Source: Octopus vulgaris
Lineage: Eukaryota
Length of the DNA stretch: 64,000 bases
Reading direction: 5' to 3'
Assembly (NCBI GenBank): GCA_951406725.2
Contig: OX597814.1
Span: 215,264,001 to 215,328,000 of the forward strand
The position numbers and the translations under genes are program-made. Positions 500 to 59,442 of the stretch are shown here, piece after piece (positions within the stretch are counted from its first letter, which is position 1; the number at the start of each line of letters is the position of its first letter). Below the pieces are notes generated by a model that worked only from the letters and a program-made list of their open reading frames with translations, searched no databases and had not been told where the DNA came from.

Positions 500-620
500 C
501 TTAATAGTAATAGTATGACAACAGAATAACTGAAGAGATGCCGGAGCAGATTTCTGCCCCGACATCCGAAACTCGGAGTTTTATTATGGCAACCGAATAA
601 TTGTCACATATCATTTTACA

Positions 621-657: not shown

Positions 658-1023
658 CATTATATAAAAGGGCTTAGTAAAATAAATTAATTTGCCGCAT
701 ACTGAACTTATTAGAAATAGCAGCTAAAAATCTTTTTTTAAAACTATTTCTAATACTTAAAGAAAATCTCTCTCATATAGTGTTTGCTTAACTCAACTCA
801 CGAAAGTTTGGGGGTAAAGACATCAAAAAATCAAATGCAAAGGTTTTTGATTTTTTGATGTCTTTACCCCCAAACTTTCGTGAGTTGAGTTAAGCAAACA
901 CTATATGAGAGAGATTTTCTTTAAGTATTAGAAATAGTTTTAAAAAAGTTTTTTAGCTGCTATTTCTAATAAGTTCAGTATGCGGCAAAGTAATTTATTT
1001 TACTAAGCCCTTTTATATAATGT
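657..1023. repeat. Near-perfect long inverted repeat (arms about 179 bp, 10-nt loop)
   Basis: 657-835 is the reverse complement of 846-1023 with only a few mismatches. Loop tgcaaaggtt. Unit flanked by (TA)n at 624-656 and about 1118-1143. Confidence 0.95.
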
Positions 1024-8729: not shown

Positions 8730-9204
8730 GGCGGCGAGCTGGCAGAAACGTTAGCGCGCCGGGCGAAATGCTTAGCAGTATTTCGTTCGGTGACCTGGCA
8801 GAAACGTTAACACGCCGGTCCAAATGCCTAGCGGTATTTCATCTGCCGTTACGTTGTGAGTTCAAATTCCGTCGAGGTCGACTTTGCCTTTCATCCTTTC
8901 GGGGTCGATAAATTAAGTACCAGTTACGCACTGGGGTCGATATAATCGACTTAATACCTATGTCTGTCCTTGTTTGTCCCCTCTATGTTTAGCCCCTTGT
9001 GGGTAATAAAGAAATAGAAATAGGTATTTCGTCTGCGTTACGTTCTGAGTTCAAATTCCGCCGAGGTCGACTTTACCTTTTATCCTCTCGGGGTCGATAA
9101 ATAAAGTACCAGTTTCGCACTGGGTCGATGTAATCGACTTAATCCGTTTGTCTGTCCTTGTTTGTCCCCTCTGTGTTTAGCCCCTTCTGGGTAGTAAAGG
9201 AATA
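8730..9204 (+). mobile_element. Family-A MetaSINE-like element, duplicated head plus tandem second body
   Basis: Head ggcggcgagctggcagaaacgttagc. Meta-like domain gcctttcatcctttcggggtcgataaattaagtaccag occurs twice. Second unit restarts at ggtatttc 9023. tatatataaatatatat on both flanks (probable TSD). Confidence 0.9.
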
Positions 9205-12720: not shown

Positions 12721-12956
12721 AAGGCGGCGAGGTGACAGAAACGTTAGCGCGCTGGGCAAAATGCTTAGCTGTATTTCGTCTGCCTTTACGTTTCTGAGTT
12801 CAAATTCCGCCGAGGTCGACTTTGCCTTTCATCTTCTCGGGGTCGATAAATAAAGTACTAGTTACGCACTGGGGTCGATGTAATCGACTCTAATCACTTT
12901 GTCTGTCTTTGTTTGTCCTCTTTATGTTTAGCCCCTTGTGGGCAATAAAGAAATAT
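12721..12956 (+). mobile_element. Family-A MetaSINE-like element with 22-bp TSD
   Basis: Family consensus. TSD ataatcatactata(a/c)agattca at 12699-12720 and 12957-12978. Confidence 0.92.
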
Positions 12957-23438: not shown

Positions 23439-23670
23439 AAGGCGGCGAGCTGGCGGAACCGTTAGCACGCCGGGCGATATGCATAGCCGTATTTCGTCTG
23501 CCGTTACGTTCTGAGTTCAAATTCCGCCGAGGTCGACTTTGCCTTTCATCCTTTCGGGGTCGATAAATTAAGTACCAGTTACGCACTGGAGTCGATGTAA
23601 TCGATTTAATCCGTTTGTCTGTCCTTGTTTGTCCCCTTTATGTGTAGCCCTTTGTGGGTAGTAAAGAAAC
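23439..23670 (+). mobile_element. Family-A MetaSINE-like element with 17-bp TSD
   Basis: Family consensus. TSD acat(g/a)attctag(c/t)agct at 23422-23438 and 23671-23687. Confidence 0.92.
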
Positions 23671-29663: not shown

Positions 29664-30229
29664 TTGGCGGCGAGCTGGCAGAACCGTTAGCATGCCGGTC
29701 GAAATGCTTAGCGGTATTTCGTTTGCCGCTACGTTCTGAGTTCAAATTCTGCCGAGGTCGACTTTGCCTTTCATCCTTTCGGGGTCGATAAATTAAGTAC
29801 CAGTTACGCACTGGGGTCGATATAATCGACTTAATCCGTTTGTCTGTCCTCTCTGTGTTTAGCCCCTTGTGGATAATAAAGAAATAGGTATTTCGTCTGC
29901 CGCTACGTTCTGAGTTCAAATTCCGCCGAGGTCGACTTTGCCTTTCATCCTTTCGGGGTCGATAAATTAAGTACCAGTTACGCACTGGGGTCGATCTAAT
30001 CGAGTTAATCCGTTTGTCTGTCCTTGTTTGTTCCCTCTATGTTTAGCCCCTTGTGGGTAGTAAATAAATAGGTATTTCGTCTGCCATTACGTTCTGAGTT
30101 CAAATTTCGCCGAGGTCGACTTTGCCTTTCATCCTTTCGGGGTCGATTAAATAAGTACCAGTTACGCACTGGGGTCGATGTAATCGACTTAATCCGTTTG
30201 CCTGTCCTTGTTTGTCCCCTCTGTGTTTA
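29664..30229 (+). mobile_element. Family-A MetaSINE-like trimer inside one 13-bp TSD
   Basis: One head, then bodies starting ggtatttcg at 29713, 29887 and 30071. TSD tattaattcctgt at 29651-29663 and 30230-30242. Confidence 0.93.
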
Positions 30230-31084
30230 TATTAATTCCTGTCATAACTTTTCTGCCTAACATAATACAGAAAAAATTTTGCAATGATATCGAATGCCCT
30301 TTTCTATCACCTCTGCCTCTTAACTCACGTCAAGGTAATACCAGTTCTTCTCTCAGTTACGGGGTAGGGATGCCGCCCACTCGGGGAAATACTGACTGAA
30401 ATTGTGTTATCAGTATGAGAATGTATATAAATACGAGCGAGAACACTTTCAGCTCAACGTTTCCTCCTCCAATTAGGTTAGCACGAAATTTACATGAGCA
30501 GTTTAGTTGCTTATTCCTTATCATCCCCTTCAGTAAAACAACATAGAATCTGAGCTGTGTTTATATGCCAACGCTTTCATCAAAATGAAAGCATCAATGC
30601 GCGTACAAAAAAAACAAAAGCAGAGAAAAAGAAAAAAGAAACAAGAGATGCACATACTGCAGACGAGAGTATCCGTCCTTGCACTTACTTTTCTCCACGT
30701 TTTTCTACGTGTTTATGCATAATAGCCCACACAGGTCCTATATTTAAATGCGTAGTGTCATATATCCAAATATTGCGCCAATAAGCACAGGCCGTATCAT
30801 GCTTGCAATGTTTTCCTTTCTTCTATATTACTCTTGTTTTCCAACTCCTCTCTTTAACAGCGCGTGAGAGAAAGAGAGAGAAAGAACGAAAAAGCAGGTG
30901 AATGAGAATGAGAGAGAGAGAGAGAGAGAGAGAGAAGAATAGGGTGTAGCGGATAGAGATGATGCTGAAAACACAATAAGCATGCAAGTAATGGAGGAAC
31001 AGTGAACAACGTGTATGCGTATACTTGAGTATCTGTCTGTATGTATGTATATATGACTGTATGTTATATATATATATATATATA

Positions 31085-31356: not shown

Positions 31357-31407
<51 letters not shown>

Positions 31408-31438
31408 CTCAAAATAAGCAGCAGGATATCCAGAGGTG

Positions 31439-31526
31439 ATGCAGTACGACCGTTTCAAGCAGCTCCATTTAATTGAACGATGCAATCATTACATCAACTG
31501 AAATGCAGAGCTATCCTCAGCTGCAT
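31439..31526 (-). ncRNA. Type-I hammerhead ribozyme with extended stem II
   Basis: Minus strand: atgcag CTGAGGA tagctc..cattt..agttga / tcaatt aaatg gagctg ctt GAAA CGGTCG TA ctgcat. 6-bp stem I, GUA site, followed by tail tgcttattttgag. Confidence 0.75.
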
Positions 31527-31906
31527 AAATAAATAAAAAGAATTAATTTAATCAGACGGACACATTTGTATAATTTTACTTAAATTCTGTAAGAAGGTAA
31601 GAAGACAAAGCCCATGCTGTTCTCACTTCAGCTTAGAAGCTGCTAAGACATCAGGAAAAAGGAAACTTGTTAGGGTTCTAGCTTGTCACTGATTTTTAGG
31701 GTCGGTTTTGATTTATAGTCCTAGTTTATCAAATCTTTGTATATCAAAATCTAAGACAAGCTGAAGTGAAAATAGCACTGACTTTGTCTGTCTTCTGGAT
31801 TTCTTGTTGCTTATTTTGATATTATTGATCTTATTTTAAAATTGTACGGATAATACCGCACTGATTTTTGGTGTCTCAACCTAAGTATCTAATTCATCTG
31901 AATCTC

Positions 31907-31996
<90 letters not shown>

Positions 31997-41997: not shown

Positions 41998-43080
41998 ATG
42001 AGCAAACCAAGTTTAGTGAAGGTCTGTCTGTATTCGGTAGAATTTTAGAAGTTTGGGTTTATTCCCGCCTTGCATGATGAACGCACACCATTTTGTTTAA
42101 CGTATCATCAGACATTTGACTAATGAGTCAATGAAGGGAGGTTGGCTGGAAGCACAATTGAGAGTAAACCATTTCAATCATGTCAGTTCAAATTTGAAAC
42201 TCACAATTGTACTCTTGAAGCTAGCTACAAAGGTTTTAAAAAATCACATTATTGGAGAAGAATTGATTAAACCAGGTATCTCAGTATTTTTAAAGCTGTG
42301 TTACAAAAGAATGATAAAGATGATATGGCCATGCCGCTGAATAATACTGTCTGCAGCAGAATTGATGACGTGGAGAATGATGTTGAAGAACAGGTAACTA
42401 AGAAACTGAAATTATTGAAATTCTCAATACAAATGGAAGTATCTACCTTAAGGGACAGTGTTGCCCTGTTATTGGCATATGTGAGGTATATTAACCAAAA
42501 GGAGTTTCAGGAAGGGATGTTGTTCTGTAAATCATTAGAACCGACCGTTACTGCAGTTGATATCTACTGCAAACTAAAAAAAGATATTGGGATTCAAACA
42601 AAATACCCAAAGGAAACGTTCTGTCATATGCTGCAGTTGGGGCACCTGCTAAGAAGGGCAAGAAAACAGGACGCTAAAAGCTGATGAACGCTAAAAATCC
42701 AAATATGTTGACTGTACATTCATTTCTACTCCGAGCACAAGGCTCGAAAGATGGGTCCAGTCGATTAGATTAACCCCAGTGCACAACTGGTACTTAATTT
42801 ATCGACCTCGACAGGACGAAAGGCAAAGTCGACCTCGGTGGAATTTGAACTCAGAACGTAAAAATAGACGAAATACAACTAAGCATTTCGCCCGGCGTGC
42901 TAACACTTCTGCCAGCTCGCCACCTTATGTTGACTGTATATTGCGTTATCTACCGAGAAAACTTGATTGCCAAGAAAATTTCCCTTGTTCTTGACGAGGT
43001 TTTGCAATCTGTGATCAAGTGTGTTAACACTATCACTTCAAACGTCAAATCTGCTTCGAGCCAAGAGAAGCAGATTTGAA
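41998..43080 (+). pseudogene. hAT (Buster/Charlie, ZBED5/ZBED8-like) transposase relic
   Basis: KFGFIP..PFC..LTNESMK, HIIGEELIKP, PLNNTVCSRIDD, FSIQMEVST..ALLLAYVRYI..EGMLFCKSL, GAPA, and LTV(H/Y)CVIYRENL. Multiple frameshifts and stops. Confidence 0.88.
42721..42925 (-). mobile_element. Family-A SINE inserted into the hAT transposase with 17-bp TSD
   Basis: TSD tatgttgactgta(c/t)att at 42704-42720 and 42926-42942. Reverse-complement family-A head and Meta-like domain. Confidence 0.92.
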
Positions 43081-59291: not shown

Positions 59292-59384
59292 TAATTGGCT
59301 GATGAGTACTCAGCATTTTAAAACTGTTGTAATACTTACAACATTTAATAAAATAATGTAGTAAGAAACGATCGTACCAAATTA
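59292..59384 (+). ncRNA. Type-I hammerhead ribozyme with canonical core and palindromic stem III
   Basis: taattgg CTGATGA (59299-59305) gtact...tgttgtaa-tac-ttacaaca...agtaa GAAA (59365-59368) CGATCG TA ccaaatta. Predicted cleavage after 59376. Element 59292-59413 sits between (TA)n runs and ends tgcttattttgag. Confidence 0.8.
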
Positions 59385-59442
59385 CCAGAGTCATTATCGT
59401 TGCTTATTTTGAGTATATATATATATATACATATATATATAT

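What the first reader, a model, noticed from the sequence alone, without database searches (positions are those of the whole stretch)
31408..31908. Hammerhead element sharing a 3' tail with the 59.3-kb copy and showing an inverted second terminus
The minus-strand hammerhead (6-bp stem I atgcag/ctgcat, CTGAGGA, GAAACGGTCGTA) is followed by ...tgcttattttgag, the same 13-mer that ends the 59292-59413 element, although the stems are completely different. About 360 bp away on the opposite strand, 31795-31820 (tctggatttcttgttgcttattttga) repeats this tail. It is preceded by a decayed agacaag-CTGAAG...tttgtct remnant. Inverted partial termini are a known feature of Penelope insertions. The conserved tail may be the RT recognition signal (inference).
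Basis: partly seen in the sequence, partly recalled or inferred. Interest (0 to 1): 0.7.

Follow-up and report, generated by a model that had tools for sequence, protein, structure and literature searches.

The report
Two-ended Penelope retrotransposon stub with hammerhead
This is a cut-down, back-to-back double copy of the end of a very common Penelope-type jumping gene, carrying a predicted self-cutting RNA motif; the layout is already known, and the useful detail is that such pairs almost always have one short and one long end, which likely marks two fixed start points for copying.

Summary
31408-31908 is a 5'-truncated insertion of a Hydra-clade-type Penelope-like element (PLE) in (TA)n. 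The minus arm (349 nt) holds a type I hammerhead and stops at the shared 12-mer. The plus arm (151 nt) is an inverted copy that lacks the hammerhead through a ~164-nt deletion and runs 89 nt past the 12-mer. Genome-wide, the 12-mer follows a hammerhead core 3,635 times (control 0). It precedes TATATA in 4,213 matches and a longer tail in 3,212. In full-length copies the tail is the 5' UTR before the start codon. Three corrections: the 'decayed hammerhead' is a copy of internal sequence; the 13th base is junctional; and sister families with intact ORFs keep both end positions but not the 12-mer. One detail is useful. Inverted pairs carry one short and one long end in 50 of 50 short pairs and 100 of 105 pairs overall, with either arm longer. 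This fits two cDNAs primed at two fixed RNA sites (inferred). A one-sided tail and two initiation sites are published for other PLEs, and the scan has noted this layout before elsewhere in this genome.

The parts
31409..31757 (-). Minus arm: last 349 nt of the element's 3' UTR / pseudo-LTR, ending at the short end (E1)
   Evidence: Query 152-500 matches dozens of genomic copies at 83-91%; arm length
31439..31526 (-). Type I hammerhead: stem I ATGCAG/CTGCAT, core CTGAGGA and GAAA, U-U at 10.1-11.1, stem II with ~50-nt extension, palindromic stem III, predicted cut after GUA (31445/31444)
   Evidence: Sequence; covariation in 134 parsed cores; no Rfam hammerhead hit; activity untested
31409..31420 (-). 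Shared 12-mer that marks the short end; the G at 31408 is junctional
31758..31793 (+).
31794..31819 (+). Plus arm: 26 nt ending in the second 12-mer (31808-31819)
31820..31908 (+). 89-nt tail up to the long end (E2); in full-length relatives this is the 5' UTR, with the ATG about 50 nt beyond E2
31394..31407 (.). Left (TA)n flank (target microsatellite)
31909..31938 (.). Right (TA)n flank
59292..59413 (+). Single-arm 122-nt stub of a related family (B): hammerhead plus short end, between TA runs. Its 11.1 base is A, where most family copies have C.

Best explanation
This is an old, truncated insertion in a TA microsatellite made of two inverted copies of the 3' end of a Hydra-clade-type Penelope-like retrotransposon, one ending at a short fixed point and one carrying an 89-nt tail, and it was likely made when both cut strands of the target primed reverse transcription at two fixed sites of the element RNA. 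Shown: family membership, anatomy, two fixed ends, one-short/one-long pairing, and arms that share subfamily variants. Inferred: the element protein cuts both strands of (TA)n. One 3' end starts at E1 (just after the 12-mer) and the other at E2 (85-105 nt downstream in families A-C), most likely on the same RNA. Both cDNAs stop early and are joined at short microhomologies. The deletion in the plus arm arose during or after insertion. The hammerhead is the normal pseudo-LTR ribozyme and is predicted to process element transcripts; no host function is implied. Odds: about 0.95 for the identity, about 0.6 for the two-primer mechanism.
For: Family: 3,842 first-look candidates, 40 scored, 73 matches. 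Copies L061 and L062 run upstream into endonuclease and thumb remnants; the endonuclease fragment of L108 is 51% identical over 140 aa to an intact 954-aa ORF. Intact ORFs of 954 and 1,072 aa carry IRWK/IRWR, PADKTG, LYRDDA, CxCx5C, CQLC and CxH, as defined for Hydra in PMC8557442 section 11 and alike by eye to its Fig. S7 rows. Order hammerhead - E1 - tail - E2 - ATG in full-length copies. Genome counts: core+12-mer 3,635, control 0; 12-mer+TATATA 4,213, control 1 (9 of the 100 listed rows were double counts); 12-mer+tail 3,212, control 0. 163 of 179 short ends run into TA. Pairing: 50 of 50 short pairs picked only by their two 12-mers have the tail at one end (script labels 38 E1/E2, the other 12 resolved by reading the printed flanks); 100 of 105 pairs overall; 28 of 29 from coordinate lists on contig C1. 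These sets overlap. Short-end arm longer in 37, long-end arm longer in 31, equal in 22, of 90 resolved out of 100; by more than 20 nt, 22 against 17. Arms differ at common polymorphic sites 6 times against 34 expected (9 pairs) and 13 against 55 (11 pairs). Two initiation sites, cutting and extension of both strands, and a predicted dimer are reported in vitro for Poseidon_Ac (PMC11167929).
Against: No intact ORF was found for the window's own family (A); its link to the RT is through fragments and through homology with sister families. Pfam gave no RT or GIY-YIG hit for the 9 ORFs or fragments scanned, and no tree with reference PLEs was built. 5 of 105 pairs were not short/long by script. 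One (L234) has a partial tail. Two (L263, L265) face the upstream repeat of a full-length copy rather than an end. Two (L099, L182) remain short/short and may be separate insertions. Only 12 of 30 hammerhead-plus-12-mer ends had an inverted partner within 1.5 kb, so single-arm insertions are common. 13 of 20 pairs differ at one or more common polymorphic sites, and the partner was the nearest neighbour of either arm in only 17 of 35, so one RNA molecule is not proven. PMC11167929 saw no difference in start site between strands in bulk. The hammerhead alone does not fold better than shuffles (z -0.33).
Confidence: 0.75

Rival explanations
1. Fold-back or self-priming: one cDNA (or an antisense RNA) folds on itself at a small palindrome and is copied back; the tail is left by endonuclease resolution.
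For: Proposed for Adineta PLEs (PMC3846280 passages); PMC8557442 ascribes the tail to endonuclease resolution. Many short pairs centre on a palindromic GGATATCC, with ~8-nt overlap. Arms share variants.
Against: A fold-back of fixed polarity makes one class of arm always the shorter; both classes are often much longer (22 against 17 by more than 20 nt). A first strand begun at E1 holds no template for the tail.
Confidence: 0.12
2. Two RNA molecules: each subunit of a dimer copies its own RNA, one from E1 and one from E2.
For: Residual differences between arms at common polymorphic sites in 13 of 20 pairs; a scan note (e1-9539494) reports halves from different parents in another family.
Against: Differences are 4-6 times fewer than for random family pairs and are mostly C/T or G/A; arms are of the same family in 34 of 35 pairs. 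Two free RNAs give no obvious reason for strict short/long pairing.
Confidence: 0.1
3. One reading: the 13-mer itself is the RT recognition signal, and a second, decayed hammerhead marks the inverted terminus.
For: The 12-mer is kept across families A, B and C and sits at the short end.
Against: Intact families D and E end at the same aligned place with different last bases; the 13th base is junctional; the 'remnant' is internal sequence.
Confidence: 0.05
4. A purpose-built structured RNA (retrozyme or rod-like circular RNA) whose two ends pair.
For: The 501-nt strand folds better than 100 of 100 shuffles (z -4.28).
Against: That fold comes from the inverted duplication, which no other copy shares in this form. 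There is one hammerhead, no tandem unit, and the family belongs to ORF-bearing elements.
Confidence: 0.03

Closest known systems
Hydra clade of C-terminal EN+ Penelope-like elements, including Hydra-1_Obim (Craig et al. 2021, PMC8557442)
   Same: RWK-type motif, DKT, CxCx5C linker, CxxC and CxH, (TA)n target, canonical hammerhead often with U-U next to the core, inverted 5'-truncated copy (noted for Penelope-13_HM)
   Different: A different family from Hydra-1_Obim (different hammerhead and N-terminus, compared by eye). Units are about 4.6 kb rather than under 3 kb, with Asn-rich inserts and a 1-2 kb 3' UTR; stem II carries a ~50-nt extension; the tail is 85-105 nt (longer in family D) rather than 30-40.
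Poseidon_Ac of the green anole (Frangieh et al. 2024, PMC11167929)
   Same: Two internal initiation sites that delimit the genomic tail; AT-rich target; both strands cut and extended
   Different: Other clade. Its sites lie inside the ORF, here in the 5' UTR. Coupling of the two sites within one insertion was not reported in the two of four parts read.
Adineta vaga Penelope elements (Arkhipova et al. 2013, PMC3846280)
   Same: Inverted pseudo-LTRs, tail at one of the inverted repeats, microhomology-mediated internal deletions, Asn-rich ORF inserts
   Different: Low copy number, 31-bp tail, target-site duplications visible; interpreted there as self-priming.
Metazoan non-LTR retrozymes (bioRxiv 10.64898/2026.07.22.740005)
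   Same: Type I hammerhead, PLE origin
   Different: No tandem array; this is a truncated end of a coding element.

Membership tests
Hydra-clade PLE | Single ORF with RT and C-terminal GIY-YIG-type endonuclease | tested here: met
   Intact ORFs in sister families D and E; only fragments for family A. Domains read from motifs; Pfam was silent.
Hydra-clade PLE | N-terminal RWK motif | tested here: met
   IRWK in family D, IRWR in E, IRWI/IRWM in B-like copies; not available for family A
Hydra-clade PLE | DKG changed to DKT | tested here: met
   PADKTG
Hydra-clade PLE | CxCX5C linker | tested here: met
   CKCRIKSKC, CNCRIKSKC, and CNCRVKFHC in family-A-like L108
Hydra-clade PLE | CxxC and CxH around the conserved E and N; CCHH absent | tested here: met
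   CQLC/CELC and CVH/CIH/CMH; one Cys only between the IY and G core motifs, read by eye
Hydra-clade PLE | Canonical hammerhead in the pseudo-LTR | tested here: met
Hydra-clade PLE | Insertion into (TA)n | tested here: met
   163 of 179 short ends; both window flanks
Hydra-clade PLE | No CxC domain and no insertion in fingers | tested here: inconclusive
   RT region looks colinear with the Fig. S7 Hydra rows by eye; not aligned to references
Hydra-clade PLE | RT phylogenetic placement | not tested
   Reference proteins were seen only in a supplement and were not brought into the tools
Hydra-clade PLE | Usual size under 3 kb (a tendency in the paper, not a diagnostic) | tested here: not met
   About 4.6 kb between the two direct hammerheads in L277 and L282
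Type I hammerhead ribozyme | Core CUGANGA, GAAA, NUH with three stems | tested here: met
   Stem I positions 1-4 paired in 117-130 of 134 cores with A-U/G-C swaps; stem II positions 2-4 paired in 123-129 of 134; 10.1-11.1 is U-U in 71, G-C in 40, G-U in 19. Counts are sequences, not events.
Type I hammerhead ribozyme | Rfam model match | tested here: not met
   No hammerhead family among listed hits; the long stem II is the likely cause (inference)
Type I hammerhead ribozyme | Self-cleavage | not testable with these tools
   Needs an RNA assay
Non-LTR retrozyme | Tandem non-coding units, each with a hammerhead | tested here: not met
   Single hammerhead; the family continues into ORF remnants

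The most novel reading that the evidence does not exclude
PLE insertion is an obligately asymmetric twin-primed reaction: one protein dimer on one RNA starts two cDNAs at two fixed sites about 90-100 nt apart, one from each strand of the cut (TA)n target, often with a non-templated base at the short end. The 'optional' tail and the inverted repeat are then one footprint. Thousands of pairs in this genome, and sister families with intact ORFs, make this directly testable.
Probability: 0.5. Interest if true: 0.5.

Novelty: new member of a known kind. Interest (0 to 1): 0.25.

Why it matters
As a locus it is retrotransposon debris. As a population it bears on a question that PMC8557442 calls open: how PLEs form inverted structures with a tail at one end. 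Near-strict short/long pairing, free arm lengths and shared variants narrow the models and say what a single-molecule assay should show. It also adds abundant, long-form Hydra-type families, some with intact ORFs, for repeat annotation of this genome.

Tried and rejected
Rfam scans of the window and the region: only microsatellite-driven miRNA hits and weak snoRNA hits, no hammerhead. Pfam on 9 ORFs or fragments: no relevant family. PDB sequence search with the RT half: 2 non-significant hits. tblastn of the intact protein against the window: none. First arm-length estimate failed for 81 of 100 pairs because partner arms were in the library; redone. Consensus fold of the tail region: only 8 weak pairs, 2 with double changes; single folds were unremarkable in families A and B (z +0.76, +0.54) and low only in D (z -3.23), so no conserved tail structure is claimed. 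Expression: no RNA holder listed on record. Contigs of 4 runs guessed to be RNA showed no joints, so a 5' UTR intron was neither shown nor excluded. They did show TA loose ends at family D's long end in 4 of 4 runs and near its short end in 2 of 4 among the rows shown. Considered and dropped: Naiad or SECIS reading (C-terminal endonuclease, no in-frame TGA); Neptune/Nematis (DKT and CxCx5C instead); rod-like retrozyme; second hammerhead. Literature searches found no paper that counts short/long pairing; the library lacks most subscription papers.

Full report
Observation. The hammerhead-like motif, the shared 12-mer and the inverted copy are at the stated places. The 12-mer occurs 11,566 times in the 2.8-Gb own genome against 396 for the reversed control. 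It follows an exact hammerhead 3' core at 22-26 nt 3,635 times (control 0), and it is followed by TATATA in 4,213 matches (control 1; 9 of the 100 listed rows were double counts).

Anatomy. A search with the 501-nt element gave 73 matches from 40 scored of 3,842 candidates. Query 152-500 (window 31757-31409) matches copies at 83-91%. Query 1-115 matches the sequence that follows the 12-mer in many copies, on the opposite strand. So the insertion has two arms pointing outward. The minus arm is 349 nt, contains the hammerhead and stops at the 12-mer (short end, E1). The plus arm (31758-31908) starts with a copy of internal sequence 31603-31634, jumps about 164 nt at a TCT microhomology and so lacks the hammerhead, passes the 12-mer, and continues 89 nt to a second end (E2) in (TA)n. 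The 'decayed CTGAAG hammerhead' is that internal copy plus four bases of the other arm. The strong fold of the whole strand (z -4.28) reflects this duplication.

Family. Longer copies extend about 1.8 kb upstream into the C-terminal half of a PLE endonuclease and a thumb fragment. A protein search with that fragment had 27,638 first-look candidates, 150 scored. Of 20 long loci fetched, 15 showed hammerhead plus 12-mer downstream of ORF remnants; in L107 it lay far downstream and may be a separate copy. The 59-kb element belongs to family B, whose copies are 94-96% alike. A search with the ORF's N-terminus showed the order hammerhead, E1, tail, E2, about 50 nt, ATG: the tail is the 5' UTR. Sister families D and E have intact ORFs of 954 and 1,072 aa with Asn-rich inserts. 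They carry RWK/RWR, DKT, CxCx5C, CxxC and CxH, the marks of the Hydra clade in PMC8557442 (section 11; passages; supplement part 2 and look-ups). The published Hydra-1_Obim has a different hammerhead and N-terminus, compared by eye. I built no tree, and no intact ORF was found for the window's own family. Earlier scan notes call the host an octopus; I did not test that.

The shared tail. Families A, B and C share the 12-mer. D and E end at the same aligned place with other bases. Conserved in all 13 aligned sequences are a block just before E1 and several blocks within the tail. The recognition element is more likely the whole region around both ends than the 13-mer (inference, in line with PMC11167929, parts 1-2 of 4 read).

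Hammerhead. In 134 parsed cores from 323 distinct ends, stems I and II stay paired through A-U/G-C swaps between families, the base before the cut is A in 128, and stem III is usually the palindrome that would allow a dimer (the dimer model for PLE hammerheads is recalled, not read here). U-U beside the core is the commonest state and also appears in published Hydra hammerheads. Rfam does not detect it, and the isolated motif folds no better than shuffles. Activity is untested.

Pairing of ends. There are 248 genomic sites with two 12-mers back to back within 12-42 nt. In the first 50, all fetched, the tail is present at exactly one end (38 labelled E1/E2 by script, 12 resolved by reading the printed flanks). 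Among all 105 distinct inverted pairs in the loci, 100 are short/long, 3 short/short and 2 long/long; three of the five exceptions are explained. From coordinate lists on contig C1 (91 short ends after removing 9 double counts; 99 long ends after dropping 1 beyond the shared range), 28 of 29 pairs within 5 kb and 26 of 26 within 1 kb are short/long. The sets overlap, and some loci were chosen for having a short end. Either arm may be the longer. Arms are of one family in 34 of 35 pairs and closer than the family median in 33, and they differ at common polymorphic sites 6 times against 34 expected and 13 against 55. Single-arm copies are also common: 12 of 30 ends had a partner within 1.5 kb.

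Mechanism. The best fit is twin priming: both strands of the cut (TA)n target prime cDNA, one at E1 and one at E2, probably on one RNA, and the two truncated cDNAs join at short microhomologies. Fixed-polarity fold-back, proposed for Adineta elements (PMC3846280 passages), predicts one arm class always shorter, which is not seen. A two-RNA model is not excluded. All mechanistic steps are inferred from genomic footprints.

Novelty. [quoted passage not shown] It is not a retrozyme as defined in 10.64898/2026.07.22.740005 (part 1 of 5 read). Four searches found no count of short/long coupling, but the library is incomplete. Verdict: new member of a known kind, interest 0.25.

Noticed in passing
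window 524-586 (+): A second, unrelated type I hammerhead (CTGAAGA core, ACTC-G-GAGT stem III as in several published Hydra hammerheads) in a ~125-nt block between TA runs; likely the end of another PLE family.
   Followed up: partly
window 727-954: Palindrome with 109-nt arms, 97% complementary, 10-nt spacer.
   Followed up: no
window 59361-59364: The 59-kb hammerhead has A at position 11.1, where most family B copies have C; likely damaged.
   Followed up: partly
L278/L279 (G000:C2:37616000-37629999): Two full-length family D copies back to back, one ending short and one long: the same asymmetry on a 10-kb scale.
   Followed up: partly
L061:7700-8450 and L062-L065 (oriented coordinates): The family A 3' UTR contains a ~350-nt internal direct duplication at about 70% identity.
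   Followed up: no
L280:7037-7070, L285, L289, L291: A conserved pyrimidine-rich stretch ending in AG just before the ATG could be a splice acceptor of a 5' UTR intron; contigs showed no joint.
   Followed up: partly
L293:2096-4606, L295:2079-4406, L104:8459-10000: Further, more distant Hydra-type ORFs (836 and 775 aa intact) without this tail; L295 lacks the CxCx5C linker.
   Followed up: partly
window 8788-9140, 12792-12889, 23443-23669, 29668-30252, 42737-42927: Copies of a common SINE-like repeat, three in tandem at 29.7-30.3 kb.
   Followed up: no
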